A stretch of DNA of 64,000 bases from an uncultured Verrucomicrobiae bacterium (GCA_963762565.1 CAVXLD010000001.1:1120001-1184000), one strand, 5' to 3'; numbered from the stretch's first letter, positions 263 through 63,037 are shown. A program made the numbers and translations. Notes: generated by a model from the sequence alone, not told the origin.

Positions 263-577
263 CAAGACCGATTGGGGACAGGTCAACAAGACCGATTGGG
301 GACAGGTCAATAGTCGACAAAGGGAAACCAGAACGGGGACAGGTCAATATTAAATAGACTTGGCGCCGGATCGCCATGGCTAGGTATCGCACGCCGCTCG
401 CTACGCCGGCTGAAAGGGCCGTGCAGCTCGCGAACTTGGAATGCCAGGAGAGCGGGCACCTCGGATAGGGACAGGTCAACTGTTGACCGTCCTAAGGTTG
501 TCGCTAGAAGTCGAAAAATGGGGACAGGTCAATAGTCGCTAACGAGAACAAGACGAGGCAACACCTGACCTGTCCCT
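263..577. repeat. Cluster of GGGACAGGTCAA motifs (RAYT-associated inverted-repeat units)
   Basis: Forward copies at 274, 298, 335, 468, 520; reverse copy at 566; 24-bp tandem duplication 263-286/287-310. Confidence 0.9.
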
Positions 578-651
578 TACCGATTTCTGTCAGTTACATG
601 AAAAAAGAATTGGGATCTAACCAGTAGTTCTGTCAGTTAGAGAGTCGAAAA

Positions 652-2226
652 ATGGACCTCCAAACTTTCTCACCTCTCTACGGTAGCTGGTGCCCGTCGG
701 TGAACTTGCTGGGATTGATAATGTTGTTCATCGCCGTACCAGCGCTGGGGCAAGGCGGCGGAACGCATACGACACTTGACCAAGTAAATCAGGCGGTGCG
801 GGAGGCCCGAAGACTCTGTGAAGATCAAATTGGAAAAGATGCGGTTCCAGGTCTCGCCATTGCCGTCGTATTTCAGGATCAAGTCACCTATGCAGCGGGC
901 TTTGGGGTGCGAGATGTCAATACCCGGGAACCGGTGAATGTAGATACTGTGTTCCAGTTGGCATCGTTATCCAAAGCGATTGGCTCAACCGTCGTAGCGG
1001 AACTTGTCGGCGAAGGCAAAATCTCCTGGGACTCCAAAATCAGCGATATCGATCCTAATTTTGCGATGTACGATCCCTGGGTGACACGCGAAATCACGAT
1101 TCGTGATTTCTACGAGCATCGCAGTGGCCTACCTGCATACGCAGGCGATTCGCTCGAAGTTCTAGGATTCAACCGAGAGCAAATCTTGCATCGTTTGCGC
1201 TATCAAAAGTCCAACACCAGTTTCCGTTCTCACTTCGCCTATACCAATTTTGGCGTTACCGAGGCCGCCGTGGCAGCAGCCAAGGCGTATAACCTGACCT
1301 GGGAAGACGCCGCAGAGCAAACGCTCTACCAACCACTCGGCATGAGTTCTACCAGTTCGCGTTATGCCGATTTTTCTGCGCGGACGAACAAAGCATCTGG
1401 CCATGTACTGGTCGATGGCAAGTGGGCCCAAAAATATAAGCGCGATCCGGATCCGCAATCCCCGGCTGGCGGAGTCAGCTCATCGGTCAATGACCTTGCC
1501 AAGTGGATGCGTTTGCAGCTCGCGGACGGGCAATTTGAAGGCCGACGGATCGTCGACGAAAAAGCGTTAGCAGAAACCCATTCACCGGAAATTTTAATAG
1601 GATCCAATCCACAGAACGGGTTGCCTATGTTTTATGGGCTTGGTTGGTTCGTCAGTTACGACCAAGCAGGGCGGTCGCTCCTTTGGCATAACGGAATATT
1701 CACATCGGGAGCGGCTACCATCGTAGAGCTAGTTCCGTCCGAACATTTGGGCATTGTTGTCCTCACCAACGCTTTCCCGCCTGGCGTTGGGGAAGGGCTC
1801 GCTTTTACGTTTACCGATGTCGCTTTGTACGGGAAGGCCACTCAGGATTGGCTCGCATTTTTCAAAAAGGTGTATGCCAACGTGGCTGCGCTGGGTGTGG
1901 GAACCGACTACTCCAAACCGCCCGCGGCACCCGCATCGGCATTGGCGACCGGCGCGTACGTCGGGACCTACACCAACAACTTCTATGGAGAGATTCAGAT
2001 CATCGAACAGGGCGACGGACTCGCCATTGTCGAGGGCCCTTCCAAGTTGACTTTCTCCTTAAAGCATTATGACCGCGACCTATTCACTTGTGACAACACC
2101 GAAGGCGAAACGACCGGAGTGACCTTTGCTATTGGTGCGGACGGGAAGGCGACGACAGTGGTGGTTGCGGACCTCAACTTACATGGCGACGGGACTTTTC
2201 AACGCCGGTCCGCTGAGGACAAATGA
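652..2226 (+). CDS. Serine hydrolase, beta-lactamase class C/AmpC family, with C-terminal DUF3471-like domain
   Basis: SxxK (SLSK), YxN (YTN) and HxG (HNG) motifs; N-terminal hydrophobic signal; true start may be downstream. Confidence 0.85.
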   Translation: MDLQTFSPLYGSWCPSVNLLGLIMLFIAVPALGQGGGTHTTLDQVNQAVREARRLCEDQIGKDAVPGLAIAVVFQDQVTYAAGFGVRDVNTREPVNVDTVFQLASLSKAIGSTVVAELVGEGKISWDSKISDIDPNFAMYDPWVTREITIRDFYEHRSGLPAYAGDSLEVLGFNREQILHRLRYQKSNTSFRSHFAYTNFGVTEAAVAAAKAYNLTWEDAAEQTLYQPLGMSSTSSRYADFSARTNKASGHVLVDGKWAQKYKRDPDPQSPAGGVSSSVNDLAKWMRLQLADGQFEGRRIVDEKALAETHSPEILIGSNPQNGLPMFYGLGWFVSYDQAGRSLLWHNGIFTSGAATIVELVPSEHLGIVVLTNAFPPGVGEGLAFTFTDVALYGKATQDWLAFFKKVYANVAALGVGTDYSKPPAAPASALATGAYVGTYTNNFYGEIQIIEQGDGLAIVEGPSKLTFSLKHYDRDLFTCDNTEGETTGVTFAIGADGKATTVVVADLNLHGDGTFQRRSAEDK

Positions 2227-2241
2227 ACTGAAACCGCCCCA

Positions 2242-3234
2242 ATGCGAATACTCCGTCGAGTGATATGGTGGCTCGCGTTCGTGATCCTCTGTTTCGTAAC
2301 CGCTTGGGCAACTGCAGCCATTTTCTTCGATCTTCCGGCACGTAACCTGAGTGTGCCAGCCGCCACTATTTACGTAGCCTTAGTAGTAGCTATTCTGTTC
2401 TTTCTGAGGTTCAGGTGGGTTTCGCTGGGGTTTTGTTTCGTTTTATTTGCCGGCGTTCTTTGTTGGTGGTGGTCAATCCAAGCGACTGGCAAACGCGACT
2501 GGCGGCCGGATGTTGCCGAAACCGCCTGGACAGAAAGAGACGGAGACAAGATCACCATTCACAACCTGCGAAACTTTGATTACGAGCCGGGGCAGCCGGC
2601 CAAGCCCCGGTGGGAGACTAAGGTCTTAGATCTTAGCCAACTGCAAGGAGTGGATCTTTTTATTAACTTTTGGGGATCGACTATGATCTGTCACCCGATA
2701 GTGAGCTTTCAATTCGGGCCGACCGATCACGTAGCCATTTCGGTTGAGACCAGGATGGCCCAAGGCCAGACCTATTCCATGATTCGCGGTTTCTTCAAAC
2801 AGTTCGAGCTGATCTACATTGTCGCCGATGAACGCGACGTGATTAGGGTCCGAACGAATTACCGGCACGAACAACTCTACCTTTATCGAACCAGCATTCG
2901 ACCAGAACGAGCCCGAAGCCTATTCCTCGATTACCTGAAGAGCGTTAATGCCATCCACGTGCGACCGCATTTCTACAACGCGGTAACAGATAACTGCACG
3001 ACTAATGTGCGAACGCATACCGCAGCCACAACGGTAAAACCTGCTCCCTGGGATTGGCGAATGTTGTTGAACGGAACCGTAGACGAATTGGTGTACGAAA
3101 ACGGAGGATTCGCCAGCCACCTCCCCTTTGCTGAGCTCAAACCGATGTCGCTCATCGACGCCAAGGCTCAAGCTGCGGACCAGGCTCCCGATTTTTCTGA
3201 GCGGATCCGAGTCGGTTTGCCAGGATTCGACTAG
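2242..3234 (+). CDS. DUF4105 / Lnb N-terminal-like membrane protein
   Basis: Three N-terminal TM helices; conserved-looking ICHPIVSF and YNAVTDNCTT. Confidence 0.75.
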   Translation: MRILRRVIWWLAFVILCFVTAWATAAIFFDLPARNLSVPAATIYVALVVAILFFLRFRWVSLGFCFVLFAGVLCWWWSIQATGKRDWRPDVAETAWTERDGDKITIHNLRNFDYEPGQPAKPRWETKVLDLSQLQGVDLFINFWGSTMICHPIVSFQFGPTDHVAISVETRMAQGQTYSMIRGFFKQFELIYIVADERDVIRVRTNYRHEQLYLYRTSIRPERARSLFLDYLKSVNAIHVRPHFYNAVTDNCTTNVRTHTAATTVKPAPWDWRMLLNGTVDELVYENGGFASHLPFAELKPMSLIDAKAQAADQAPDFSERIRVGLPGFD

Positions 3235-4976
3235 AAAGGGTTGGGAATAACCGAATGCGCTTTTTTTGAGGCGAGGCTTGAGCCCGAACGCTCGAGAGTC
3301 GCTAAATGCAGACGGAGAATTCGTTTCAATTCGGCAATGGTCTGAGGAAGAGCAAAGGAGCCGTGAGGGCCCGGAACGATCAATTCTGATTGGGCGCCCG
3401 CAAGATGCGAGCTCCAATAGGGAACCACACCGTCCGAACTGTTGGGGGTATCACCGCGACCCCGATCGCCAATGATCGAGTAGTACGGAACAACAATTGG
3501 AAGCTTATCAAGAGCGTGAAGAACAGGGTTTCGCGGAGAAAGACCGTTGATCCCGGTCGGTGGGTGTTTCAAGCCGATATTCTTTAAGACTGAACCGGTG
3601 ATTGCCTCGCCAACATGACTCACGATGGTCCTGGGAATACGAATGAGACCGACGCCGATCGAACCAATCCAGTTAGTCGCGAGATAACTGCCGCGGTGAG
3701 GTACACAGATGAAAACGATCCTTTCGACGTGCGGGGTGGGATCGAAGATCAGCGCTTTTTTGGCTAAATTATCCGGCGGCGTTGTCGCGTAGAGGCGATC
3801 CGCGTCATTCTGGAACACCGCGTTCCATAGAACCCGCTCGGTGCGCACCGCTTGCAGGTGGGCAAGTAATCCACCCATACTATGAGTGATGAGAACCATG
3901 CCCTTGCTGCGAGGATAGAGTTGATAAATGCGCTCTAAGCTTTCCCGAAGCCGGAGAGCGGACACCAGTATGGGGTCGCCCGTCGGATAAGCGAAAAGCC
4001 AGAACTGAAACCGGCCCCGCAACTCCGGATCGGACTGGATTGCGCTGATCGTCGGAACCCACATCTGGGGGATCGACAACAGGCCATGGATGAAAACGAC
4101 CGGGATCTGGTCAGGGTCATAGGGTTCGACCAGATAGAGTCCCGTTTGTTCCCGGTATCTTTCCGGGTCCATCATTGCTTGGAGACCCAAGAACGTCGGA
4201 TTTGGGTAATAAGTGTAGACGGCCGCGAAGTCAGCGCCCAAGGGTCTCTGCGTACCGGCGATCCGAATCGTTTCTTGTTTCGCCGGATCATAGAGGCTGA
4301 AGGTCGCGTCGCGCTTGTCCGACATAGCTTTAGCGACGCCCGAAACACCATCGCTCTTAGAACCGCCCTTGGGAAAGTCGACCGTGGCGGTCACCGGGAC
4401 CGCGAGGCCCAGGCGAGGTAGAAAGAATTGCCTGGGATCAGGCGGTTTATGGACTCCCACTAACAAACCGCCCCAACCACTGGTGCGTCCCGTTTCAACA
4501 GCGAGTTTCCTATGCAACTGTTGCGGGGTACGGAAAAAGTCGAAGTAGCTCGGGTCCCACGTGCCGGCCTCACGCGAACCGGCTGCGAATTCCAACCTGT
4601 AAGTGTGATCGCCCGATTGAATGGTCGTAGTCCGATTCCACAGCTGGTTACTAGACCGCAGTAAGACGGCCATTTCCTGGCAGGCCCGGTTGTAAGTTAG
4701 CCGGGCGTCTGTCGCCTCGTCGCCGGATGTACTGCTCACCAGGGGTAACGCGGTATAGGCTGCATCCAGGTAATGTCCTACGGCGGTCTTTGGATCAGCT
4801 TGTGTTCTGCGTGCTTCATCCAGACTTAGCTGGGCTCCCGAAACTGGCAGGTTGCGGTTCGACGTTTGCTGCGTGACACACCCGCTAGAGATTGCGAGGC
4901 AGCATATAAGCAAGAGAAATCGACTTAGCTGCCGACACGGGCTTCTACCATTCATCGACGTTAGTGCGCAGGCCAT
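3231..4976 (-). CDS. Alpha/beta hydrolase lipoprotein (esterase/lipase family)
   Basis: Lipobox-like SSGC, IHGL oxyanion motif, HSMGG nucleophile elbow, DGVV and late His. Confidence 0.8.
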   Translation of the reverse strand: MACALTSMNGRSPCRQLSRFLLLICCLAISSGCVTQQTSNRNLPVSGAQLSLDEARRTQADPKTAVGHYLDAAYTALPLVSSTSGDEATDARLTYNRACQEMAVLLRSSNQLWNRTTTIQSGDHTYRLEFAAGSREAGTWDPSYFDFFRTPQQLHRKLAVETGRTSGWGGLLVGVHKPPDPRQFFLPRLGLAVPVTATVDFPKGGSKSDGVSGVAKAMSDKRDATFSLYDPAKQETIRIAGTQRPLGADFAAVYTYYPNPTFLGLQAMMDPERYREQTGLYLVEPYDPDQIPVVFIHGLLSIPQMWVPTISAIQSDPELRGRFQFWLFAYPTGDPILVSALRLRESLERIYQLYPRSKGMVLITHSMGGLLAHLQAVRTERVLWNAVFQNDADRLYATTPPDNLAKKALIFDPTPHVERIVFICVPHRGSYLATNWIGSIGVGLIRIPRTIVSHVGEAITGSVLKNIGLKHPPTGINGLSPRNPVLHALDKLPIVVPYYSIIGDRGRGDTPNSSDGVVPYWSSHLAGAQSELIVPGPHGSFALPQTIAELKRILRLHLATLERSGSSLASKKAHSVIPNPF

Positions 4977-6034: not shown

Positions 6035-6101
6035 GGGACAGGTCAACTGTCGGCCGCCCAAGGATGTCGTTATGCAGCCGCACCACTATTGACCTGTCCC
6101 C
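6035..6101. repeat. Miniature inverted-repeat unit GGGACAGGTCAA...TTGACCTGTCCC
   Basis: Forward motif 6035, reverse motif 6089; spacer related to the 6857-6923 unit. Confidence 0.9.
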
Positions 6102-6856: not shown

Positions 6857-6923
6857 GGGGACAGGTCAACTGTTGTCCGTCCCAAAGTTGTCGTTGTGCA
6901 GCAGCCCACTGTTGACCTGTCCC
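6857..6923. repeat. Miniature inverted-repeat unit
   Basis: GGGGACAGGTCAA at 6857 and TTGACCTGTCCC at 6912. Confidence 0.9.
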
Positions 6924-7930: not shown

Positions 7931-8013
7931 GGGGACAGGTCAACAGTCGGCAAGAGTCTGTCGCTATCGACCGTATCATGCCGGCAACCGGCTCAATCAA
8001 TAATTGACCTGTC
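7931..8013. repeat. Miniature inverted-repeat unit
   Basis: GGGGACAGGTCAA at 7931, TTGACCTGTC at 8004; spacer related to the 38018-38097 unit. Confidence 0.85.
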
Positions 8014-8180
8014 ATTCTGCCGCTGGGGCATGCATAGTCGTGCGAGTGGCCGGAACGTAGGGCGCGTGATGAGGGGGGTACTTTTCCCTCGAAGCTGACC
8101 TGGAGAACAAGTCACCTGGGACTAAGGTCCAATAGCGCTACCAAGCCCGGCCGGCGATAACTGCTAGGAGCCCACAGCAA

Positions 8181-16046: not shown

Positions 16047-16171
16047 CTACCTGGCATTCTTTGTTCCGGCTGCCGGAACTATTGTCTAGATGGCGTCGCC
16101 GAGCTTCCGCGATCCGACGAACAATGTTGTCGTTCCTCGCACCAGGCATATCAGAACACAACTTCCGGCAC

Positions 16172-24254: not shown

Positions 24255-24385
24255 AGACCGGGGAGACGGCTTCTGTAACATTCTCTCATAATCTGTTTTA
24301 GCGAGGCCGTATTGCGGACAGGTCAATGATCATGGCTAACCGTAAAGGAAATCTATGGAGTGACCCTACCGGAGGCGACGAAGTG

Positions 24386-26733: not shown

Positions 26734-26879
26734 GGGACGGTCAACCGTCCGGTCCCAGCGCAAAGAGGCATCCTCCATCACCAGCTGTAAGCCTGCCTCG
26801 AGAGACTACGGACCCGCCCCACACCCCCTCTTTCTGAAAGCACCTCGGCTAGGTTCCGCAAAATAGCTGACCTGTCCCT
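26734..26879. repeat. Inverted-repeat unit (variant left end)
   Basis: GGGACGGTCAA at 26734, TGACCTGTCCCT at 26868; right flank nearly identical to 39200-39234. Confidence 0.75.
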
Positions 26880-29218: not shown

Positions 29219-29926
29219 TCACTTCCGTCCTTCCGAAAACCTTTTCAGACCTTGGAGCCAATCGTCATGACTGACGTGAACCAGCTCCGGATAAGCTCCT
29301 CGGGCATACCGCGCCGCCACTCCGGTCGCAACCTCTTCGAAAGTCACAACGCACTTCTTAGCGCCAATCGGTTTAATGTACCAATTGTGGTACGAAGCAA
29401 CCACCGCACCGTGGTGAGTGAAGGCACGGCCGTAACTGCGCCAGCCGAGGCGATTCGGCGGATCGTATTCCATCACCACAGCGTCTACTCGTTCAGGCGG
29501 GGGGTTCTCCCCGATCGGGATATCTTGCGGCAGGTCGGAACTAACCCAGGTGAACCTGCCATTCTTTTGCAGCACCTTCGCCCAACCCAAAATTTGGACT
29601 TTGCCAGAAAACGGGCACCATTGGGACCAGCGCTCCGCTTGGATCAGGTAATCCCATACCGTCTCGCACGAAGCATTTATCTCGATCTGATTGTGCGTAA
29701 ATACTTCCGCGGCTCCATTGAACATCGTGGTGGGCCAATGCATCTCCGGCGACCGCTCGGCCCAATCCCGGCTGACAGTATCGCCCGGAGGTGCGGGTTT
29801 GACCTCTCCCGTGACTGTTACCCCCGGTAACTCAGTTGCCGCCCTGATAGTAGTCGCAGCCATTGCCGCGAATAGACTGCAAACTGCAAACACTAGCTTT
29901 GTGGCTATGACAAAATGCGTTCTCAC
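29219..29926 (-). CDS. Exported SRPBCC/START-like protein
   Basis: Signal peptide; IEINASCETVW..L, W..W, RLGW, W..GLK. Confidence 0.7.
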   Translation of the reverse strand: MRTHFVIATKLVFAVCSLFAAMAATTIRAATELPGVTVTGEVKPAPPGDTVSRDWAERSPEMHWPTTMFNGAAEVFTHNQIEINASCETVWDYLIQAERWSQWCPFSGKVQILGWAKVLQKNGRFTWVSSDLPQDIPIGENPPPERVDAVVMEYDPPNRLGWRSYGRAFTHHGAVVASYHNWYIKPIGAKKCVVTFEEVATGVAARYARGAYPELVHVSHDDWLQGLKRFSEGRK

Positions 29927-30100
29927 CGGCTTCCTCTAGCTGATGCGGTGAACTATTTGGCTTCCTCTGATTGACGTCAATTCTAATGCTCGGGCGGGCA
30001 GGTGGGAACCTCTGATAGGGACAGGTCAACTGTCCGGTACCGTGAGAAGGTCCTTTCTCGAGAGGTCACGTCTAAATAAAAGACGTGACCCATGGTCCTT

Positions 30101-37890: not shown

Positions 37891-38136
37891 GAAAACGGAA
37901 GTGGGAAAAACGGAAGTGCGAAAACGGAAGTGGGGACAGGTCAATAGTCAGCAAAAAGTCTAGCTGTCCAGCACCACCGCGACTTGCTCAACGAACGAAA
38001 ACGGCGAAAACGGAAGTGGGGACAGGTCAATAGTCAGCAAAAAGTCTAGCTGTCCAGCACCACCGCGACTTGCTCAACGAATAACTGACCTGTCCCTAAG
38101 CCGACTGACCTCTTCGGAAATAGCTGACCTGTCCCT
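37891..38136. repeat. GGGACAGGTCAA cluster with a 78-bp duplication
   Basis: Forward 37932, 38018; reverse 38086, 38125; 37918-37995 repeated at 38004-38081; short AAAACGGAAGTG repeats. Confidence 0.9.
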
Positions 38137-39056: not shown

Positions 39057-39222
39057 CGGTCGTGAATTGGGGACAGGTCAACGGTCGTGAATTGGGGACA
39101 GGTCAATAGTCTGCAAGGACAGAGATCTGAGTAGGGACAGGTCAACTGTGTTGGTTGCCGCGTAAGCCATTACGCGTGAGCACGTGCCGTCAATTGGTTC
39201 GCAAAATGGCTGACCCGTCCCC
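39057..39222. repeat. GGGACAGGTCAA cluster
   Basis: Forward 39069, 39094, 39134; variant reverse 39211; 25-bp tandem duplication 39057-39081/39082-39106. Confidence 0.9.
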
Positions 39223-39604
39223 TTTCTTCTCTGCAAAACACATTTAAACAATACGCGCTCTCACTCGAGTCCGGACGTCCGTAAAATCCGTTCGCTAATT
39301 AATTACCGGCCACGCCGGGCGCCGGCCTAATGACTCACCTATCGCCGGCGCTTCCGAGATCCGCGAGAGCCTTTTGCGATGGCCCGAAATGCCAAGATTG
39401 ACGCAAGTAACGCCACCACGATCAGGGCACACAACAAGAGTGCCGATGACGCTTGGTCTCCGAGCATCTGCGCGAAGTTTGATTCCATAGAGTGACACTC
39501 AGTAAAGCGGTTTTCCAGGGACCGTAAGAAAGGGACAGGTCAACTGTGCCCGTTATCGTGCAGGCAAGTACAGTAGGGTGCCTGTCGCAATAGAGGCTGA
39601 ATTA

Positions 39605-40916
39605 GGGACAGGTCAATAATCATGACTAACCGCAAAGGAAACCAAACAAGGTGCGGATCAATAGAAGATAACAGGCAGCGCTTTTGCCGGGGACCCTTCG
39701 GAAAGCTTTAAAACGGGGGAAAGCGTTCGAGGCCGTGCCCGCGGACGTGGCTCGACCTGCGCGAAGGCTAAAATGCTAGGCTAGCTGACCGGCCGGAGAC
39801 GGAGATTGCGGAGCACCCAGATCTGGTCATCGGCTATGACGGGCAGCCGGTAGCCACGACCGGATTGGGTAGGAGCGACGATTTGTCTGCAACGGGCGAA
39901 TTGTTCTTGCACAAATCCCCGGCTACCGAGGATTCCGCCATCGGTAAAATAGCGTATGCGGCAGCGCAGAAGGTCCGCCAGTGGGATCTCGCCTTGCTGC
40001 TGCTGGAGTACTTTCTGGGCAAGGTCCCCTTCAATGGTCGCACCCACTTTGGAAGCAGCCGTTCCGGTTCGAAAAAGCAGCTTGCGATATTCCCGGCGCG
40101 CATCCTTCCAATTGCTCTCTGTGCCTAGGCCTAATGTCTCCTGAATCCCCAGTTTGGCGTGGGCCGAGTCCTTAGCGATCGCCTCGGCGTAGCCACAATA
40201 GCGGTAGTCTTTCGGATCTTCGCATAGCCCAGCCCTAAGCGGATTTAAATCGATATAGGCAGCTACCGCACTTAAAGCTTGGCCCTCCTCGATTAATACA
40301 CTCTTAAAGCGCTCCGCCCACAGAACCCCGTATCGGTGATGGCGTCGATTGTACCACTGTGCAAAGCGGCCCTTGAGCTCCTTCATGTAAATCGATACGT
40401 CAAAGAGCCTGCTCAAGTGATGCTCCCTGAGCTGTTGCGCCTGATCGCTCAAGCTTGCTTCTTTGGCGTAGGCGGCTAGTTGCTGAGCCACTTGAGTGCG
40501 CCGCTCTGGCCCGTAGCCAAGCTCGATACAATCCAGCAACTCCTGGTCGGAAAGTGTTCGTCGTTCCGGCACCTTGCACAAGATATGAAAATGGTTGGCC
40601 ATCAAAGCATAGGTTAGCACTTGCACGCAGCAGGCCTCCTCCAGCCGCCGCATCAGGTGAACGAAGTGCTCGGCTTCAATCGAACCAGGGCTTTGGGTCC
40701 GAAACAGAAATCGCCCATCGACCACTCGTGACATGCAGTGGTAGAAGGTCTGTCCTTGTCCTTTGATTCGTGGCTGTCGCATTGGTGCTCAGCCCACATT
40801 CATAACACAAATCATTGCTGTATCAATATTTTCTCTTTGATAACCGAGTGGGCGACCCCCGGGGTAGCCCTCATATCCTTCGGTCCGCCCCCCGTCTTGA
40901 ATAATTGACCTGTCCC
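39605..40916 (-). mobile_element. Y1 (RAYT-like) transposase element bounded by inverted GGGACAGGTCAA ends
   Basis: GGGACAGGTCAATAAT at 39605 (another copy at 39532) and ATAATTGACCTGTCCC at 40901 flank the transposase. Confidence 0.75.
39781..40782 (-). CDS. HUH/Y1 REP-associated tyrosine transposase (RAYT-like)
   Basis: YHCMSR, MANHFHIL (HUH), YNRRH..G.LW.ERFKS, YIDLNPLRAG, DYRYCGY; long C-terminal extension. Confidence 0.92.
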   Translation of the reverse strand: MRQPRIKGQGQTFYHCMSRVVDGRFLFRTQSPGSIEAEHFVHLMRRLEEACCVQVLTYALMANHFHILCKVPERRTLSDQELLDCIELGYGPERRTQVAQQLAAYAKEASLSDQAQQLREHHLSRLFDVSIYMKELKGRFAQWYNRRHHRYGVLWAERFKSVLIEEGQALSAVAAYIDLNPLRAGLCEDPKDYRYCGYAEAIAKDSAHAKLGIQETLGLGTESNWKDARREYRKLLFRTGTAASKVGATIEGDLAQKVLQQQQGEIPLADLLRCRIRYFTDGGILGSRGFVQEQFARCRQIVAPTQSGRGYRLPVIADDQIWVLRNLRLRPVS

Positions 40917-44525: not shown

Positions 44526-44665
44526 TCCCAACCCGCTGGTTACAACTCTCGGTTTGGGAATCTAAAATAGGAACAGGTCACAGCTCCTGCATCGCGGTGG
44601 CCGGTGCACGCGGAAAGATTTGCAAAAATCAGAAGTCTTTTGCGTCAGGTTGATAGAGACGCCAG

Positions 44666-44983
44666 ATGATCTTCTACCATAGGACGAACGCTGCAAAAAC
44701 CATCTTGCGCTACGGATTTAGAGACGCAGAACGATTTCGCGGTTTCGAAAGCCCAGTTCTCCGGGGAGTCTTCATTTCTGACGTTCCGCTCGCGTGCATG
44801 GAAGAAGAAAAAGGGAGCCAAGTTCTGAAAATCACGCTCCCTGACGATTTTGACATCTCCGATTACGAATTGATCGAGAAGAGCAAACATTACCGAGAGT
44901 GGTGCATACCGTCGGAACTGATTAACCTACTCGGCCAGGTCGAACTCCCGGAAGGAGAAGCTGAATTGGGGACAGGTCAATAA
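44666..44983 (+). CDS. Small protein, possible ADP-ribosyltransferase-like fold
   Basis: FYHRT..I...GF, GVFISD, EWCIP; last codons ELGTGQ* encoded by the repeat. Confidence 0.55.
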   Translation: MIFYHRTNAAKTILRYGFRDAERFRGFESPVLRGVFISDVPLACMEEEKGSQVLKITLPDDFDISDYELIEKSKHYREWCIPSELINLLGQVELPEGEAELGTGQ

Positions 44984-45076
44984 TCGCCAACTGTCTGGCT
45001 ACCGGTCGTATTTCCAATGAAACAATTGACCTGTCCCTCGCCCTGGATTCAATTGACCTGTCCCTCGCCCTGGATT
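44968..45076. repeat. Inverted-repeat unit with a 27-bp tandem duplication
   Basis: Forward 44968; reverse 45026, 45053; duplication 45023-45049/45050-45076. Confidence 0.9.
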
Positions 45077-45514: not shown

Positions 45515-46504
45515 ATGGATACCAGAACTGGCGTGACTCGGCGAGAGTTCCTGCGGAGTTCTTTGATCACTGCGGCGGGTCTGGCGACGGGCGTCTCCGG
45601 CGCTACCCTCTCTTCACCGCCGACTTTATCGGAATCACTGCGCCTCGTCTTCGCTACTGATACCCATCTGATGCAGAACAATGGCTTACGTTCGGCAGAA
45701 GGACTGGCTGCAGCGGTAGAGGCAATCAAAGAGTTGCGACCACGACCAGATCTGATCGTTTGCGGCGGCGATCTCACTCATCCCTGGCCAAACCTCGATT
45801 ATCCCGCCGCGAACAAACTGCTGGATCGTTTCCTTGGCATTTGGGCACCGCTGCATTCGATCGAGACCCATTACGTTTTCGGAAATCACGACTTCGTTGG
45901 CACGCTGAACCCGCGTGTTTCTCGACACGATCCGCGCTTCGGTAAGGGGCTGTTTGAGAAGCGCCTCGATCTCCCCAGGCTGTATTACTCATTCGAAAAA
46001 CGAGGCTGGCGTTTCATAATCCTCGACGATGTCTGGCCGAATCTGGACGGCAGCTACTACGGACAGTACAAGGCGGACCAGCTCGACTTCGTCCAAAGCG
46101 AATTAAAAGCCCACAAGGAAAAACCAACCGTCATCGCCAGCCATATCCCAGCGGTTTCCAATTTCGGGACATTGCTCGGATTCGCCAGATCTATTCAGAC
46201 CAATTTCAAGCATCGGCCTTCGCTGATTTCGAGAAACGGCAAGACGCTAGTCAATATCATTCGCCAGTCCGGAGCTAACGTAAAGCTGGTGCTTGCCGGG
46301 CATCTTCACCATCAAGAGAGGATGGAGGCCGATGGCGTTAGCTACCTCAACGGGGGCGCGATTTGTGGTAACTGGTGGAAAGGATCGATGATGGGCTGTC
46401 CGGAAGGATTCAATGTGATCGATCTGCACCCAGATGGTTCATTCGCGATCGCTTATAAGACGTTTGGTTGGGCTTGGGACAGGTCAACTGTTTCGGTTCA
46501 CTGA
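45515..46504 (+). CDS. Tat-exported metallophosphoesterase
   Basis: TRREFL signal; DTH, GGD, GNHD, GHLH. Confidence 0.9.
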   Translation: MDTRTGVTRREFLRSSLITAAGLATGVSGATLSSPPTLSESLRLVFATDTHLMQNNGLRSAEGLAAAVEAIKELRPRPDLIVCGGDLTHPWPNLDYPAANKLLDRFLGIWAPLHSIETHYVFGNHDFVGTLNPRVSRHDPRFGKGLFEKRLDLPRLYYSFEKRGWRFIILDDVWPNLDGSYYGQYKADQLDFVQSELKAHKEKPTVIASHIPAVSNFGTLLGFARSIQTNFKHRPSLISRNGKTLVNIIRQSGANVKLVLAGHLHHQERMEADGVSYLNGGAICGNWWKGSMMGCPEGFNVIDLHPDGSFAIAYKTFGWAWDRSTVSVH

Positions 46505-47748: not shown

Positions 47749-48561
47749 ATGATCTTCAAAGGTCTGTTCGGGCCAATGGCTGCTCTGATTGGCCTGGGGT
47801 TCTCTTTCCCGGCGGTCGCTGAAGCCGGTGGACCGGTTCGGCTTTACAGTGCGGACCGTACCCATAACGATTTTTGGGAAAACAGGGGAAGTCATCGCGA
47901 TCGAACAGGAGAACGGAGCGATGGGCCTCCAGGTTAAGGAATCGGACGGATTCAATGTCGAGGTGGTTAATCAGTTGAAGGAACCAACCAGTATCCATTG
48001 GCACGGCTTGATCCTACCCGCGTTGATGGACGGAGTTCCGTTTGTGAGCCAGGATCCAATTCCTCCCGGTGAGACTTATCATTATCAGTTTGCGTTGAAG
48101 CAAAGTGGAACTTACTGGCTCCATTCTCACTATGGTCTACAGGAACAATTGTTAGCCGCCGCGCCGTTAATCCTGGAAAGCGAAGCGCAAAACGCCAAGG
48201 CCGATGAACAATACACAGTGCTCTTGAGCGATTACTCGTTTACGTCGTCTGCAAAAATCCTCGAACGATTGAAGGGCGGTATGCCGGTTCAGCGGCAACC
48301 AACTTCTTCGTGAACACCGGAGCGTTGACCAGCCAGTTAACGGCGGTTGATGGAAAAGATATCGAGCCGGTATCGGGAAATTATTTTCAGTTAGGGATCG
48401 CGCAACGGATCGATCTGCTGATGAAAATCCCGGATAAAGGGGACGCTTTTCCTATTCTGGCCCAGCGTGCCACATCCTCTATCACGCGGCGGTGGGCATG
48501 TTCACGGTTCTCAAATACGACGGCGCCGATACCAAGTTTTGGCAACCCGAGAAAACGCTGA
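47749..48561 (+). pseudogene. Multicopper oxidase, frameshifted and internally deleted
   Basis: IHWHG, MDGVP, WLHSH; later QRIDL and a CHILYH-like remnant out of frame. Confidence 0.8.
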
Positions 48562-55323: not shown

Positions 55324-56388
55324 GTGCCACCTACCCGTATTAAGTCCTCCGGAGCGCCGACCATGAAAGATGTTGCTGAGTTGGCCGGCGTGTCGGTAAC
55401 CACCGTTTCCCATGTGCTGAACAAGACCCGGTATGTAGACCGGAGTTTGGTTCGGCGAGTTGAGGCCGCGGTTAAGACCCTTGGGTACCAGCCGAATGCG
55501 TTAGCGCGAGGATTGCGCCGAAAAGAAACCCGAATGCTTGGCGTGGTGGTACCGGATAATTCCAATCCATACTTTGCTGAGCTCGCTCGGAGCATCGAAG
55601 ATGCGTGTTTCGAAAGCGACTATAACGTCATCCTCTGCAATTCCGACGAAGACCCGACTAAAGAACGCGCTTACTTATCTCTGTTAGCGGAGAAGCGCGT
55701 CGATGGAATTGTTTTTGTCGCTTCAGGCGATGATCGCGCCGGAGTACAGGCCGTTCTGCAACAGAAAATTCCACTGGTGCTTTTGGATAGAGAGCTCAAA
55801 GGCACCAAGTGCGATGCGATTCTAGTAGACAATCGTTCTGGCGCGCGTCGGGCGACCCAACATTTGATCCAGGGAAACCACCAGCGGATTGGTTGCGTCT
55901 GTGGTCCCAAGAATCTGGCTTCAGCTAAAGAACGGCTTCAAGGTTACCAAGACGCTTTCACGGAGGCGCGCCTGCGCATGGATCCCAAATTGATTCAGCC
56001 CGGAGACTTTCACATCGAAGGCGGATTTACCGCCATACAATCGCTGCTGGATCTGCCAACTCGAATCACTGCGGTCTTCGTAGCAAACGATTTGATGGCG
56101 ATAGGCGTCTTAAGAGGAATCGCAGCCCGCGGTCTACGCGTGCCAGAAGACATCGCAGTCGTGGGATTCGACGGCATTTCCCTGGGAAGATACACGCAAC
56201 CGCCACTAACAACGGTGGCGCAACCAATTCGTAAAATTGGAAAGTTGGCGACCGAGCTAGTGTTATCGCGAGTAAACGGCGAGCGAGAGGAACCGCGAAT
56301 TCATCGCTTAGAGACGAACCTGGTTGTTCGCGGGTCTTGCGGGATTACACAGAAGGGCACGAAGACAAATCTTTTGAACAAGAGCTAA
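55324..56388 (+). CDS. LacI-family regulator (RbsR/PurR-like)
   Basis: TMKDVAELAGVSVTTVSHVLN, YQPNALARGL, VVGFD. Confidence 0.95.
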   Translation: MPPTRIKSSGAPTMKDVAELAGVSVTTVSHVLNKTRYVDRSLVRRVEAAVKTLGYQPNALARGLRRKETRMLGVVVPDNSNPYFAELARSIEDACFESDYNVILCNSDEDPTKERAYLSLLAEKRVDGIVFVASGDDRAGVQAVLQQKIPLVLLDRELKGTKCDAILVDNRSGARRATQHLIQGNHQRIGCVCGPKNLASAKERLQGYQDAFTEARLRMDPKLIQPGDFHIEGGFTAIQSLLDLPTRITAVFVANDLMAIGVLRGIAARGLRVPEDIAVVGFDGISLGRYTQPPLTTVAQPIRKIGKLATELVLSRVNGEREEPRIHRLETNLVVRGSCGITQKGTKTNLLNKS

Positions 56389-56624
56389 CAGCCAGCCTGA
56401 GAACAGCTTCGTGGGTTTGCAACCACCTCTTGGTGTCGATCCAAATCAGACGTTGTGTTAGTGCCGGTAAAAATGCTTTAGGCAGGAATAGAGCATCTGA
56501 ACTCGACCATCTGCTCTATTACATCTAGCTTACATTCGCATTACAAATACATAATAATATCATGTTGCTTTTGCCATTGATATCGGATCGATGTTTGTTA
56601 AGTTTGCAGGGTAATGAGCAGAGA

Positions 56625-58446: not shown

Positions 58447-58780
58447 TTATTATCCCACCGAACTCTCGTTGCGCCTATCTCTGCGCAACAATCGAAAAAA
58501 GTTAAATCCAAGAAAGAAAAAGCGATCGATCCTTCCACAGAAGATCACGAAGGACCCAAAGACAGACGGCTTGAACAGGAGGAAGCAGGGGCAACAGAGG
58601 TAAAAGACCGGCCCCCGAAAGAACCTTGTGGGGGAACCCTCCGTTTCCTCTGTTAGCTCCTGTTCAAAAGATTTGTCTTTGTGGTCTTCTGTGGACCCGC
58701 CTGCGGATTAAGCGATCGGACCGCTCCGAGCGCATTTTAGGTGACTAAGCCTTTATCTGTAAATCTGTGTCCATCTGTGG

Positions 58781-60621: not shown

Positions 60622-60770
60622 ACTTCCATAGAAGAGTAGCCTTTATTTTTGGCGATCGAGGTTACGGCTTGGTTCCGCGTTCGGAATAATGTTTGTTTAA
60701 GTAGATCCGCAGAATTGCATTGCAACGTATGCAGAATTGGATCGATGAAGAATCGTCGTACATTCGACTC

Positions 60771-61234
60771 ATGACCACAGCCGATATCAAGACGCCACGT
60801 CCGTATCCCGGGATCAGGCAGGCCAAGATATCGGTGGCAAAGACGGAAACCCCACGAGAAAGCCTTCTGCCGATATCGCTTCTATCCGCAAAGGGATTCC
60901 GCCAAAGGATTTCGTACTGCTAGCCAGGCATATCGGTTTACCGCAGGCAGAACTAGCCAGGAAATTGGGGCTCTCCCCGAGAACGATAGCAGTGCGTATT
61001 GCCGGGGGCCAAAAGAAACTCAATCCTGAAGAAAGCGAAAAGGTCCTCCGGATCCAGCACATCTTTGAACAGGCCATTCGCGTTTTTGGCTCGTTAAAGG
61101 AGGCGCGAGAATGGCTGTTAAGTCCGGCAATTGGACTCGAAGGTCAAGGACCCATTGATCTGCTCGATACTGAGCCGGGCGGTGCTCAAGTCCGTGATTA
61201 CCTTGGCGCGATCGAATACGGAAACTACTGGTGA
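60771..61234 (+). CDS. Xre/MbcA/ParS-type antitoxin, apparent frameshift near the N-terminus
   Basis: IRKGIP..HTH..ESEKVLR..AREWL..PIDLLDT..IEYG; that frame has no start until 60965. Confidence 0.75.
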
Positions 61235-61701
61235 AGCTCTACCGGTTCGGTTCCGGGTCCGCGCGGCCTGCAGCCGAAGAGTTTAACGGACAAGGTGGCG
61301 TTCTAGCTGCTGGCAGGTGGCACATTAAAGGTACACCGGTCGTTTATACGTCTACCTCAGAGCCCCTCGCACTTTTGGAAAAGCTGGTGCACCGACGATC
61401 AGCTACGGTCGTCTATCCGCTTTATATCGCCGATGTGCCCGATCATTTAATTGAAGAGCTTCCCGCCACTAGTCTGCCGGCAGATTGGAGATCCATTTTC
61501 CCAAGTCGTTCCACTCAACGATTGGGTAACAATTGGCTTATAGGTAGATCCGGAGTGGGACTTCTAGTGCCGAGTATTCTCCTCACTGGCGCCGCTCCGG
61601 AGGTTAAAAACTGTCTAGTGAACCCTGAACATCCGGAATTCAAAAAAGTCGCGCTGAGCGGACCAATACTGCTAGCGTTGGACAGCAGGTTCAATCAGTA
61701 G
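61231..61701 (+). CDS. RES-domain toxin (NAD+ phosphorylase family)
   Basis: GRWH, YTS, ALLE, VPS, NP.HP; GTGA overlap with the antitoxin. Confidence 0.9.
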   Translation: MKLYRFGSGSARPAAEEFNGQGGVLAAGRWHIKGTPVVYTSTSEPLALLEKLVHRRSATVVYPLYIADVPDHLIEELPATSLPADWRSIFPSRSTQRLGNNWLIGRSGVGLLVPSILLTGAAPEVKNCLVNPEHPEFKKVALSGPILLALDSRFNQ

Positions 61702-61858
61702 GGTTCAAAGTTATACCCGAATCCTTTCGCACAGAAAACGAAGGCAACGAAGGATATTATTGATTGTCCTAGCGGCGTTTCGGAGCCGACGGCCCTTCGT
61801 TAGCTTCGTTAACGTTCAGCTGAGCTCACGTCGAAGCCTTCTGTAAAATTGGCTTTGC

Positions 61859-62644
61859 TCAACGCTTCGCGTACTCGTCGTGCCGGCGCCACCACATGCC
61901 CTCGGTCTCGTAGAGGTCATCCTCGTTCCGACCTTTCGGGGCGCGGTCGAGCCATTGGTACATCCCCCAGAGGCCATCCAGCCCACGGGCATAAGTGGAA
62001 TAGGTGTGATAGATGTGCCCGTCCTGGAGCACGAATGCGCTCATGCCTGGCCGGTCGCGCGTGTAGGTGAGCGCGTCCGTTCCGCACATGGCCGCATTTT
62101 CTATCACGATATCCGGGAGCTGGGTTGTCTCGTCCATGGCATGGCCTCCGCACTTATAGTTATACTCGATGCTTCCCTCGCGCTGTTGCTGCTCGGAGAA
62201 CGAAACGTTGAAGTCGGCGTTAAAGTCGTTGTTGAACGAGGACGCCCAGGGAAACGTCCACCCCATTCGCCCCCTATAGGCCTTTATCTTTGCCAGTGGC
62301 GCGCGTGACACTACCGATAGCGTTACATCGTGGTTCGCCAGGTGGACAACGAAGCCGTTGAACCCGTCCGCGATGGTAGAGCAGGTCGCACACCCCGCCG
62401 AGTAGTCGGGACCGAACATGTAATGGTAGATAAGGAGCTGCGACCGGCCCCTGAATAGGTCTGCCAGCGATGCACTCCCTTCATCGGTGTCGAATCGGTA
62501 TTCTTTTTCGACCCGAACCCAAGGCAGTTCCTGGCGTTGGCGCGCCAACTCGTCGCTGTGCCGGGTTAGCTCCTTCTCTGCCTCAAGCAGCTTGAGCCGC
62601 GCTTTCAACCATTCTTCACGTGTTCCGGTTAGGTGCGTTGCCAT
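61859..62644 (-). CDS. DUF899 thioredoxin-like protein
   Basis: LPWV, LF.GRSQL, CATC, HTYSTYARG, LDRAPKGR. Confidence 0.92.
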   Translation of the reverse strand: MATHLTGTREEWLKARLKLLEAEKELTRHSDELARQRQELPWVRVEKEYRFDTDEGSASLADLFRGRSQLLIYHYMFGPDYSAGCATCSTIADGFNGFVVHLANHDVTLSVVSRAPLAKIKAYRGRMGWTFPWASSFNNDFNADFNVSFSEQQQREGSIEYNYKCGGHAMDETTQLPDIVIENAAMCGTDALTYTRDRPGMSAFVLQDGHIYHTYSTYARGLDGLWGMYQWLDRAPKGRNEDDLYETEGMWWRRHDEYAKR

Positions 62645-63037
62645 ATCGATGTGTTCTCTTTCTTGGGGTTCTGTTTGTTCTCGCGGTACAATTCGGTAGT
62701 CGTTTGTCGTGCGATAAACTTAGCGTCGGATTCCGAACCCATGGAGTTACAAATGTGTCGGGATTCCGAAAACCTAACCGCAGCCCCGAAATTCTCCGGG
62801 GTAAAATGGACGCAGATTTACGCAGATTTCGGTCTGGGCTTCGACTATGCCACCGACTATACGGCGATTAGATTGGCTTGGAACAAGGCTTTAAGATCAC
62901 TCAGCTTTGCGTTCGTTGTGCTCTTTTGCGGCTATTCTCAATCTTCAGATAGGGAGAGGTCAACTGTACCGGCAGTCGAAGACGCGGAGTAACTTGACTT
63001 TGCCTAGCGATTTCGGTGTCCTCTAGTGATCGCCCTT

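What the first reader, a model, noticed from the sequence alone, without database searches (positions are those of the whole stretch)
263..62963. HUH/Y1 transposase with about 33 dispersed GGGACAGGTCAA ends: a candidate gene-shuffling system
Seen: forward motif at 274, 298, 335, 468, 520, 6035, 6857, 7931, 24316, 26734(variant), 30018, 37932, 38018, 39069, 39094, 39134, 39532, 39605, 44570(variant), 44968, 46476 and 62952(variant). Reverse motif at 566, 6089, 6912, 8004, 26868, 38086, 38125, 39211(variant), 40905, 45026 and 45053. Density is high beside the RAYT-like gene (39781-40782), which is itself enclosed by an inverted pair. Copies lie between genes or at gene ends, none seen mid-gene in an intact CDS. 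Known: RAYT HUH nucleases act on ssDNA hairpin repeats, and from memory some relatives are flanked by GGGG[AT]CAG-type inverted repeats rather than GTAG hairpins. Inference: this enzyme mobilises the miniature units and may join unrelated genes at them, building the mosaic.
Basis: partly seen in the sequence, partly recalled or inferred. Interest (0 to 1): 0.88.

Follow-up and report, generated by a model that had tools for sequence, protein, structure and literature searches.

The report
Tyrosine transposase with inverted-repeat satellites
A soil bacterium carries one intact HUH/tyrosine transposase gene of the little-studied "TIRYT" kind, surrounded by about thirty copies of its 12-base end sequence; this is a real mobile-element family of a kind already described, and nothing shows that it is a dedicated gene-shuffling machine.

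Summary
GGGACAGGTCAA occurs 31 times in the window at up to 1 mismatch, against 0.24 expected. 23 of the genome's 38 exact copies lie in this 64 kb.

The 333-aa gene at 39781-40782(-) is an intact Y1 HUH enzyme: HFH at 64-66, YIDLNP at 176-181, dN/dS about 0.14. Its best fold match is E. coli TnpA-REP. An inverted motif pair flanks it.

The motif follows this enzyme clade. It flanks 40 of 44 homologous loci at 47% identity or more, and 1 of 15 below that. In 43 family genomes the median copy number is 18 where the gene was found and 2 where it was not.

In some related genomes the gene is multi-copy, at 84-99% identity, and the shared DNA starts at the motif. Short motif-bounded doublets of 56-120 nt form dispersed families.

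This matches the published TIRtron/TIRYT class (Di Nocera 2013), whose inverted repeats share GGGGWSAS; here the match is GGGGACAG. I file it as a new member of a known kind.

The gene-shuffling idea is only partly supported. A few gene ends are cut at a motif copy, and one relative has duplicated a motif-bounded passenger gene. However, the mosaic continues through motif-free DNA. Two of three related contigs that hold the same modules in another order have no motif; the third has two.

The parts
39781..40782 (-). TIRYT-type Y1 HUH transposase gene, 333 aa, intact
   Evidence: Pfam Y1_Tnp scores 32 bits against a cut-off of 23. H64/H66 and Y176 are invariant in 45 sequences. The best Foldseek match is 4er8_A at E 5.4e-5. 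dN/dS is 0.13-0.16.
40905..40916 (-). Upstream terminal repeat of the gene, 123 nt before the start codon
   Evidence: Homology to loci L001 and L002 begins at about -135 to -128, that is at this motif. 35 of 44 related loci have the same arrangement.
39605..39616 (+). Downstream terminal repeat, inverted relative to 40905
   Evidence: 27 of 44 related loci have an inverted copy within 800 nt downstream.
39070..39221 (+). Array beside the gene: a 25-nt tandem of [flank+motif] at 39070/39095, then a doublet from 39134 to a degenerate arm at 39210-39221
39532..39543 (+). Solo copy
37918..38135 (.). Cluster: an 86-nt tandem duplication carrying motifs 37933(+) and 38019(+), a doublet at 38019-38096, and an extra arm at 38124(-). 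It abuts a 5'-truncated, frameshifted aquaporin pseudogene.
   Evidence: (repeat family D9)
275..576 (.). Cluster: a 24-nt tandem at 275/299, then 336 and 468 (the left half of doublet family A), and a doublet at 521-576
6035..6100 (.). 66-nt doublet, family A
   Evidence: clusters with 6858-6923 and C12:546329-546396. The ssDNA fold is -16.0 kcal/mol, z -3.5.
6858..6923 (.). 66-nt doublet, family A
7932..8015 (.). 84-nt doublet, family B, with 2 mismatches in the right arm
   Evidence: clusters with C7:115232-115315 and a copy in a same-genus genome, L096:4443-4535
24315..24326 (+). Solo copy. Its surroundings are 86% identical over 49 nt to the gene's downstream end (39593-39641), so it is a likely relic of another element end.
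   Evidence: repeat family D20
26734..26878 (.). Decayed wide doublet: the left arm has a 1-nt deletion, and the right arm at 26867-26878 has 1 mismatch
29799..30029 (.). A 1-mismatch copy at 29799(-), lying 6-17 nt past where homology to relatives ends (29782-29793), and an exact solo copy at 30018(+)
44570..44581 (+). 2-mismatch copy
44969..45064 (.). 69-nt doublet plus a 27-nt tandem repeat of its right arm
   Evidence: (repeat family D19)
46476..46487 (+). Solo copy at a junction. It replaces the last 4 codons of the phosphoesterase gene; homology to three relatives stops at 46471.
62952..62963 (+). 1-mismatch copy with an extended match (GATAGGGAGAGGTCAACTGT)
   Evidence: repeat family D2

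Best explanation
The window holds a TIRtron. This is one intact TIRYT gene (a RAYT-like Y1 HUH single-strand DNA nuclease/ligase) together with the family of short sequences that carry its terminal inverted repeat, (G/A)GGGACAGGTCAA(Y/W)WGT. Shown: the gene and the motif travel together across a Chthoniobacterales family. In some relatives the gene with its ends is a multi-copy, recently copied unit. Motif-bounded doublets with conserved interiors occur at unrelated loci. Copies pile up within a few kb to tens of kb of the gene. Inferred: by analogy with TnpA-REP and the IS200/IS605 transposases, the enzyme recognises the repeat, nicks one DNA strand through Tyr176 with the His64/His66 metal site, and rejoins it elsewhere. 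In this way it copies itself, or, in this genome where only one full gene remains, the gene-less doublets and solo ends. Insertions go mostly into nearby non-essential intergenic DNA and next to existing copies. Side products of this activity are tandem [flank+motif] duplications, truncated neighbouring genes and occasional co-copied passenger genes. The surrounding gene mosaic is an accessory island that also carries other repeat families. The element lives in the island and scars it but is not shown to build it.
For: Enzyme. Pfam Y1_Tnp scores above its cut-off. HFH and Y---NP are invariant. The AF2 model has pLDDT 79 and pTM 0.83. Its best fold match is TnpA-REP 4er8_A (E 5.4e-5, TM 0.68 on the target), followed by the ISDra2 and IS608 transposases. 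dN/dS is 0.13-0.16 against three close homologues.

Linkage. Among 44 related loci at 47% protein identity or more, 35 have a forward motif within 400 nt upstream, 27 have an inverted one within 800 nt downstream, 22 have both and 40 have either. Among 15 loci below 47%, 1 has either. Motif density is 18 times higher within 1.5 kb of the gene than in the rest of those loci. In 43 genomes of the family, the 24 where the gene was found have a median of 18 exact copies and 15 of them have 10 or more. The 19 where it was not found have a median of 2 and 2 of them have 10 or more. None of 12 genomes from other families of the order has the motif.

Mobility. Six paralogues in one MAG (loci L027-L031 and L034) are 97.6-98.7% identical over DNA that starts within a few nt of the motif in 14 of 15 pairs. 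Paralogues in another MAG (L011, L015, L016, L017, L051) share DNA from the motif at -83 to the inverted motif at about +1300 to +1336. L007 and L008 are 95.6% identical from repeat to repeat. Doublet families have conserved interiors at unrelated contigs, and one family is shared with another species.

Local clustering. 23 of 38 genome copies lie in this window, and 6 more lie within 11 kb of a gene remnant at C12:551587-552018.

Literature. TIRYT genes are flanked by inverted repeats that share GGGGWSAS, and these repeats occur singly, as dimers or in clusters (passages read).
Against: No biochemistry exists for any TIRYT, so cleavage, strand choice and target are inferred. The motif is not a hairpin, unlike the substrates of the solved relatives. 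I found no empty site for any doublet, because relatives are not syntenic here. I saw no excision joint at a motif pair in four metagenome runs, though these hold contigs only. In one MAG the recently copied unit ends 12-47 nt after the stop codon, not at the inverted repeat, so the right end is not fixed. One genome (G008) has 28 motif copies with no gene found, and three genomes (G044, G054, G011) have the gene or a fragment with 0-1 copies. The protein scores below the NCBIfam RAYT cut-off, 59 against 80.
Confidence: 0.8

Rival explanations
1. Gene-shuffling or cassette system. The repeats are joining sites at which the enzyme excises and re-inserts motif-bounded segments that carry ordinary genes, assembling the mosaic much as an integron assembles cassettes.
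For: The phosphoesterase gene's 3' end is replaced at 46476. An aquaporin pseudogene is cut at about 37933-37944. A truncated homologue of 59906- begins 16 nt after a motif in L094. L007 and L008 share a 2.9-kb unit (96.9% identity) that starts 10 nt before one forward motif and ends 85 nt after another. This unit carries the transposase and a 469-aa FAD/NAD-binding oxidoreductase gene, and in L008 it is flanked by direct copies of a 94-nt motif-bearing piece. Doublets sit in successive gaps around single genes at 6035/6858/7932, at C12:546-548k and in L095. Solo copies are mostly in one orientation: 13 forward against 3 reverse by my own sorting of the list. By my hand tally, none of 13 motif-bearing gaps is syntenic in five same-genus genomes, against about 7 of about 27 gaps without the motif.
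Against: Related contigs hold 4-6 of the window's modules in another order, yet L084 and L086 have no motif and L085 has 2. Their module ends carry a different repeat. Window 46.5-64 kb is equally mosaic with one degenerate copy. Homologues of the gene between the two family-A doublets are not flanked by doublets in relatives. I found no segment other than the transposase unit that is bounded by motifs at two loci (the output was cut, so the listing is incomplete). The synteny contrast is weak, with roughly p 0.05-0.1 estimated by hand, and related genomes are not independent.
Confidence: 0.1
2. No mobilisation in trans. The doublets and solo copies are only remains of repeated insertions of the whole element, followed by internal deletion and decay.
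For: 24315 resembles the gene's own downstream end (repeat family D20). A gene remnant lies in the C12 cluster. Partial and tandem element copies lie beside full ones in relatives.
Against: Doublet families A, B and C have interiors that are conserved among themselves and do not visibly resemble the gene's printed flanks. This is a comparison by eye of the sequences; I ran no alignment. They occur on different contigs, and one family also occurs in another species.
Confidence: 0.1
3. Domesticated function. In this genome the single-copy, well-conserved gene no longer transposes, and the repeats serve the host as protein-binding, structural or RNA-level elements.
For: G000 has one full copy, under purifying selection. 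RAYTs are argued to be domesticated (PMC5581495, abstract and passages).
Against: Copies are confined to a few accessory islands rather than spread through the genome. The same clade is multi-copy with near-identical copies in relatives. Copies decay freely, with 1-2 mismatch and indel variants.
Confidence: 0.07

Closest known systems
TIRtrons / TIRYT genes (Di Nocera et al. 2013, PMC3733652; passages read)
   Same: A RAYT-like Y1 gene flanked by terminal inverted repeats instead of REP hairpins. The repeat head fits GGGGWSAS: GGGGACAG in 12 of 23 exact copies, AGGGACAG in 10 and TGGGACAG in 1, counted by hand. The repeats form a moderately sized family of solo, dimer and clustered copies.
   Different: This Verrucomicrobiota clade and its 12-16 nt repeat are not in the papers I searched. 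Features I did not see in the passages read: near-identical multi-copy elements in relatives, strong local clustering, and a passenger gene.
TnpAY1 subclasses 2.3 and 2.1 (Quentin et al. 2018, PMC6006769; sections 20 and 22 and passages read)
   Same: Class 2 signature Y---NP. Architecture as in subclass 2.3: 333 aa against a median of 325; HuH-to-Tyr distance of 110 against a median of 110; a helical insertion of about 55 aa after the HuH strand; a long C-terminal tail; multi-copy in some genomes.
   Different: The motifs are NHFH/YIDLNP against NHYH/YVDLNP. The host phylum differs. That paper found no flanking repeats for subclasses 2.1 and 2.3. I did not test phylogenetic placement.
REPtrons: RAYT/TnpA-REP with REP/REPIN (E. 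coli, Pseudomonas; PDB 4ER8)
   Same: Best structural match. The gene is bracketed by inverted copies of a short repeat, and the doublets resemble REPINs.
   Different: The repeat has no GTAG head and is not itself a palindrome. There are 38 copies in a few islands rather than hundreds genome-wide. The gene is multi-copy in relatives. The protein scores below the NCBIfam RAYT cut-off.
IS200/IS605 (IS608, ISDra2)
   Same: Y1 HUH chemistry, and multi-copy autonomous units in some hosts. That passenger genes are known in this family is my recollection, not from a call.
   Different: Those elements have asymmetric subterminal hairpins and no inverted repeats. Their TnpA is 130-150 aa, often with tnpB. 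No tnpB-like gene turned up in my Pfam scan of 77 ORFs.
Integron cassette arrays
   Same: Local arrays of single genes separated by an imperfect inverted-repeat site.
   Different: No integrase family turned up in my Pfam scan of 77 ORFs. Genes lie in both orientations. The repeat is tied to a Y1 HUH gene.

Membership tests
Y1 HUH transposase superfamily (PF01797) | HUH metal-binding motif | tested here: met
   H64-F-H66, invariant in 14 and in 45 aligned sequences
Y1 HUH transposase superfamily (PF01797) | Single catalytic tyrosine on a C-terminal helix; class 2 signature Y---NP | tested here: met
   Y176-IDL-N180-P181. Y176 and N180 are invariant and P181 nearly so. The signature is taken from PMC6006769.
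Y1 HUH transposase superfamily (PF01797) | Profile and fold match | tested here: met
   Pfam 32 bits against a cut-off of 23. Foldseek gives 4er8_A at E 5.4e-5, then the ISDra2 and IS608 transposases. A sequence-only PDB search is weak, E 0.22.
RAYT / REPtron | Scores as NCBIfam REP_Tyr_transpos (equivalog) | tested here: not met
   59.1 bits against a cut-off of 80
RAYT / REPtron | Flanked by REP hairpins with a GT[AG]G head | tested here: not met
   The flanking repeat is GGGACAGGTCAA. It has no GTAG and is not self-complementary on its own. Only pairs of copies form a stem.
RAYT / REPtron | Single copy per genome, with repeats dispersed genome-wide in high number | tested here: not met
   G000 has one full copy, but relatives have up to 9 matches. 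There are 38 repeats, 61% of them in one 64-kb window.
TIRYT / TIRtron | RAYT-like gene bracketed by terminal inverted repeats | tested here: met
   39605(+) and 40905(-). 22 of 44 related loci have both sides and 40 of 44 have at least one.
TIRYT / TIRtron | Repeat head fits GGGGWSAS | tested here: met
   GGGGACAG in 12 of 23 exact window copies, AGGGACAG in 10 and TGGGACAG in 1 (hand count). The gene's own two ends read AGGGACAG.
TIRYT / TIRtron | Repeats also occur away from the gene as single, dimeric or grouped copies | tested here: met
TnpAY1 subclass 2.3 | About 325 aa, HuH-Tyr distance about 110, about 55-aa insertion between beta3 and alphaC, long C-terminal tail | tested here: met
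   333 aa. The distance from 66 to 176 is 110. Helices 79-123 lie between strand 65-71 and helix 129-147 in the model.
TnpAY1 subclass 2.3 | Placement inside the subclass in a tree with reference members; motifs NHYH / YVDLNP | not tested
   I held no reference sequences. The motifs here are NHFH / YIDLNP, which is close but not identical.
IS200/IS605 | Asymmetric ends with subterminal hairpins, no inverted repeats; short TnpA, often with tnpB | tested here: not met
   The ends are inverted repeats. The protein is 333 aa. No TnpB family turned up in the Pfam scan of 77 ORFs.
Integron | IntI tyrosine recombinase next to an attC-separated cassette array | tested here: not met
   No integrase family among the 77 ORFs scanned

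The most novel reading that the evidence does not exclude
The repeat is not only an element end. It is also a re-usable joining site, so that any DNA lying between two copies can be cut out and pasted beside another copy. On this reading, TIRYT enzymes run a Y1-HUH, single-strand-DNA counterpart of the integron, trading single genes among accessory islands of soil Verrucomicrobiota. The 2.9-kb unit with a passenger oxidoreductase flanked by 94-nt direct repeats (L007/L008), the gene ends cut at a copy, and the runs of gene-doublet-gene would be its traces.
Probability: 0.1. Interest if true: 0.75.

Novelty: new member of a known kind. Interest (0 to 1): 0.35.

Why it matters
TIRYT enzymes are common, but I found no biochemical study of them among the papers my searches returned. 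This clade offers a defined 12-16 nt end, natural mini-substrates of 56-120 nt, and relatives that hold both fresh multi-copy elements and single conserved genes. That makes binding, cleavage site, strand choice and target directly testable. It would also allow a clean test of whether a Y1 enzyme can carry passenger genes. For annotating this genome, it explains about thirty intergenic repeats, several spurious short ORFs and at least two truncated genes.

Tried and rejected
1. Empty sites. I searched five same-genus genomes with the whole window and with two other motif clusters. No contig bridges a doublet site, because flanking genes sit on different contigs. The best case (L116, 93% identity) diverges 166 nt before the unit.

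2. Reads. All 20 listed runs are contigs, and no RNA holder is listed. Laying X1, X5, X6 and X7 on 37001-47000 showed no joint that removes a doublet. The 25-nt and 27-nt tandem units are single in X1's contigs, but a k-mer assembler could collapse them, so I draw nothing from this.

3. Cleavage site from tandem duplications. Seven cases in four genomes repeat [11-15 nt flank + motif] with the junction right after GGTCAA. Other tandems include interior or outer DNA, so I do not claim a cut site.

4. Strand bias against replication direction. GC skew of contig C1 is mostly negative but flat across the window, so this is inconclusive.

5. Inverted repeats around 24 more distant homologues, found by exact seeds. 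Only L076 (AGGGGACGGACATA) and L044 (GGGACAGACCCT) look related; the rest are at chance length.

6. Literature search for the motif gave primers only.

7. tRNA and Rfam scans of the window found nothing.

8. The protein atlas added only that neighbouring clusters are Verrucomicrobiota and Planctomycetota.

9. An attC-like reading of GGTCAAC...GTTGACC was considered. I dropped it because there is no integrase, and because it has one mismatch to each core site as I recall them.


Full report
OBSERVATION. A scan for GGGACAGGTCAA at up to one mismatch finds 31 sites in the window: 20 forward, 11 reverse, 23 exact. Shuffles give a mean of 0.24 and never more than 3. 29 are found within 1 nt at up to one mismatch. 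Three (44570, 8004, 39211) have two mismatches. The copy at 26734 has a one-base deletion. My scan adds 29799(-) and 49999(-). The latter lies in the middle of an FGE-sulfatase ORF and is probably chance. The conserved stretch is wider than 12 nt, roughly (A/T)T(T/A)(G/A)GGGACAGGTCAA(C/T)(T/A)GT.

The genome (6.12 Mb, 15 contigs; the window is C1:1120001-1184000) has only 38 exact copies, and 23 of them are here. The rest lie in a few small clusters on C12, C8, C7 and C5.

THE GENE. The ORF at 39781-40782(-) encodes 333 aa. It matches Pfam Y1_Tnp above the cut-off, 32 bits against 23. It scores below the NCBIfam RAYT equivalog cut-off, 59 against 80.

In alignments of 14 and 45 homologues, the HUH histidines (H64, H66) and the tyrosine of YIDLNP (Y176) never vary. 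An AlphaFold model built from the 45-sequence alignment has pLDDT 79 and pTM 0.83, with low confidence after residue 244. Its best PDB match is the E. coli REP-associated transposase 4er8_A (E 5.4e-5, TM 0.68 on the target), followed by the ISDra2 and IS608 transposases.

Against three homologues at 83-85% identity, dN/dS is 0.13-0.16, so the gene is kept by selection. The genome holds this one full copy. It also holds a C-terminal remnant at C12:551587-552018 inside another motif cluster, and three distant paralogues at about 24% identity.

LINKAGE OF MOTIF AND ENZYME. A scan of one genome per species returned 77 loci that encode relatives. I examined 59 of these, those with a near full-length match.

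- Of the 44 loci at 47% identity or more, 35 have a forward motif within 400 nt upstream of the start. 27 have an inverted one within 800 nt downstream. 22 have both and 40 have at least one. The four with neither are L005, L025, L042 and L043.
- Of the 15 loci below 47%, one has a flanking motif.
- Motif density is 18 times higher within 1.5 kb of the gene than in the rest of those 20-kb loci.

In the 43 genomes held for the window's family, the gene was found at E 1e-40 or better in 24.

- Those 24 have a median of 18 exact motif copies, and 15 of them have ten or more.
- The 19 where it was not found have a median of 2, and two of them (G008 with 28, G041 with 11) have ten or more.
- Both of those two are fragmented assemblies. 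In G008 several of the motif hits lie within about 200 nt of a contig start; G041's hits were not checked.
- The backwards-read control word occurs 0-2 times per genome.
- None of 12 genomes from other families of the order has the motif, although two of them (G019, G023) carry homologues at about 43% identity.
- Exceptions in the other direction: G044 and G054 have the gene or a fragment with no copy, and G011 has it with one copy.

Related genomes are not independent, so I give these figures as counts, not as a test.

IS IT MOBILE? In several relatives the gene is multi-copy.

- Six copies in one MAG (L027-L031, L034) are 97.6-98.7% identical. In 14 of 15 pairs the shared DNA starts within a few nt of the motif. 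It ends only 12-47 nt after the stop codon, or in one pair 165 nt after it.
- Copies in another MAG (L011, L013, L015-L018, L051) are 84-96% identical. Many pairs share DNA from the motif at about -83 to +1300 to +1336, where the inverted copy lies (CTGACCTGTCCC at +1294 to +1315). Other pairs stop at +1172 to +1191. There the unit is about 1.4 kb with inverted ends, and I see no target duplication.
- One right end is followed 12 nt later by the left end of a further partial copy, so elements land beside each other.
- The window's gene shares DNA with L001 and L002 from the motif (about -135 to -128) to about +1040.

The left end is therefore fixed at the motif, and the right end varies.

THE SMALL UNITS. 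Convergent pairs of the motif, 56-120 nt long, are common; I collected 50 in the sequences held. As single strands they fold through the 11-13 bp terminal stem, with z from -3.0 to -4.7 for five window units. They fall into families with conserved interiors.

- Family A: 6035-6100, 6858-6923 and C12:546329-546396, with a decayed copy at C5:488.8k and a left half at 468.
- Family B: 7932-8015, C7:115232-115315, and a copy in another species of the genus (L096).
- Family C: C5:603431 and C8:92373.
- Further families occur in other genomes.

These are gene-less, multi-copy, dispersed elements. This is what one expects of units moved in trans.

They tend to occupy successive intergenic gaps in a local run: 6035/6858/7932 here, C12:546-548k, and three gaps in L095. 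Tandem duplications of [flank + motif] are frequent, with 60 close same-strand neighbour pairs listed. In seven cases from four genomes the whole spacer is a copy of the outer flank and the junction falls right after GGTCAA. Other tandems are built differently, so I do not infer a cut site.

WHAT IS KNOWN.

Di Nocera et al. 2013 (PMC3733652; passages read) named RAYT-like genes flanked by terminal inverted repeats TIRYTs, and their loci TIRtrons. They noted that many of the repeats share GGGGWSAS. They also found moderately abundant repeat families arranged singly, as dimers or in clusters.

Quentin et al. 2018 (PMC6006769; sections 20 and 22 and passages read) place most TIRYTs in subclass 2.1. 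They describe the embedded subclass 2.3 as follows: median 325 aa, HuH-Tyr distance 110, a 55-aa insertion after beta3, a long tail, multi-copy, and no flanking repeats found.

The present protein has that architecture: 333 aa, a distance of 110, and helices 79-123 inserted. Its motifs are slightly different, NHFH and YIDLNP. I could not place it in a tree with reference members.

The repeat head reads GGGGACAG in 12 of 23 exact copies, AGGGACAG in 10 and TGGGACAG in 1 (hand count).

Neither the motif (primers only) nor further work on TIRYTs turned up in the library. One search found three records that use the word, two of them being versions of one paper.

THE GENE-SHUFFLING CLAIM. The window is indeed a mosaic. 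It holds unrelated accessory genes, an IS, a toxin-antitoxin pair and several gene fragments: AcrB pieces, an aquaporin piece, a UDP-glucose dehydrogenase lacking its N-terminal domain, and a multicopper oxidase piece. In five same-genus genomes nearly every gene hits a different contig.

Some related contigs hold several of the window's modules in another order and orientation: six in L084, four in L085 and six in L086.

Points in favour of the claim:
- Homology of the phosphoesterase gene to three relatives stops at 46471. The last four codons and the downstream DNA are replaced, starting with the motif at 46476.
- The aquaporin pseudogene is cut at about 37933-37944. Pfam MIP positions 129-198 match one frame, and positions 86-110 match weakly (E 0.014) in the ORF that starts in the motif.
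- Homology blocks end 6-22 nt from a copy at 6932, 24293, 29793 and 40933.
- In L094 a homologue of 59906- begins 16 nt after a motif.
- L007 and L008 share a 2.9-kb unit at 96.9% identity that carries the transposase and a 469-aa FAD/NAD-binding oxidoreductase gene. It begins 10 nt before one forward motif and ends 85 nt after another. In L008 a 94-nt motif-bearing piece stands on both sides.

Points against the claim:
- L084 and L086 have no motif at all, and L085 has two.
- The ends of the phosphoesterase module in relatives carry a different repeat.
- The order of two neighbouring genes at 2463-4310 differs from relatives with no motif nearby.
- Window 46.5-64 kb has one degenerate copy and is just as mosaic.
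- The contrast of 0 of 13 motif-bearing gaps syntenic, against about 7 of about 27 other gaps, is my hand tally and is weak.

A gene end cut beside a transposon end is an ordinary by-product of transposition. I therefore read the element as a resident of the island that sometimes rearranges it, not as the island's builder.

MECHANISM, AND HOW SURE. Four things are shown: co-inheritance of gene and repeat, recent copying of the gene unit in relatives, multi-copy doublet families, and local clustering. The rest is inferred from TnpA-REP and IS608/ISDra2: single-strand nicking through Tyr176 with the HUH site, rejoining at a new place, and preference for nearby DNA and for existing copies. Three things remain open: which strand is used, where the cut falls, and whether the repeat is bound as duplex (perhaps by the C-terminal tail, which is poorly modelled) or as a snap-back of two arms.

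EARLIER NOTES OF THIS SCAN. Earlier notes describe other hairpin repeat families crowding this genome and name RAYT systems as the closest known. I saw at least one other family in the window and at module ends in relatives. The present motif family was not among the notes shown.

VERDICT. I file it as a new member of a known kind (TIRtron/TIRYT), with moderate interest as a tractable example of an enzyme class that has not been studied at the bench.

Noticed in passing
window 39122-39492: Two soil metagenome runs from different studies (X5, X6) each hold a 400-nt contig that is a circular permutation of this 371-nt stretch, with 39492 joined to 39122. This means a tandem repeat or a circle in related strains. 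The joint lies 12 nt before the motif at 39134 and is not motif-to-motif.
   Followed up: partly
window 42988-43151, 56348-56391, 58533-58693, 63481-63915: A second repeat family (core CACAGAAGATCACAAAGG, with inverted partners) marks the motif-poor right part of the window. It also follows the phosphoesterase module in three relatives. The word GATCACAAAGG occurs 50 times in the genome.
   Followed up: partly
window 37274-37410 and 45214-45245; also 44397-44535 / 45077-45215: Stretches with summed contig depth in the hundreds in all four runs laid, with many short joints: another widespread repeat. A 139-nt direct repeat (94% identity) lies beside it.
   Followed up: no
window 29243-29793 and 60769-61705: The Xre/RES toxin-antitoxin module and the 29243-29793 gene are neighbours (0.3-1.7 kb apart) in three same-genus genomes (L086, L098, L099). 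Here they are 31 kb apart and in the opposite order.
   Followed up: partly
window 31060-32525, 37538-37944, 16043-17080, 47789-48561: Gene fragments: two AcrB pieces (profile positions 479-609 and 694-1020), a frameshifted aquaporin lacking its start, a UDP-glucose dehydrogenase without its N-terminal domain, and a multicopper oxidase domain alone. The island is rich in pseudogenes.
   Followed up: partly
L007:1016-3936 and L008:112-3033: A 2.9-kb duplicated unit in a related MAG carries the transposase and an FAD/NAD-binding oxidoreductase gene. In L008 it is flanked by direct copies of a 94-nt motif-bearing piece.
   Followed up: partly
G000 C1:531701-532042, C12:565095-565436, C5:482681-483196: Three distant Y1 paralogues (about 24% identity). 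Two of them lie within 2.5-5.6 kb of a GGGACAGGTCAA cluster. Their own repeats were not examined.
   Followed up: no
window 15041-15114 and 25314-25387: A 74-nt direct repeat (81% identity) 10 kb apart, unrelated to the motif.
   Followed up: no
window 17864-19333: A DDE transposase gene (DDE_Tnp_1_6, DUF772), that is an ordinary insertion sequence. Same-genus genomes hold copies at 77-82% identity.
   Followed up: no
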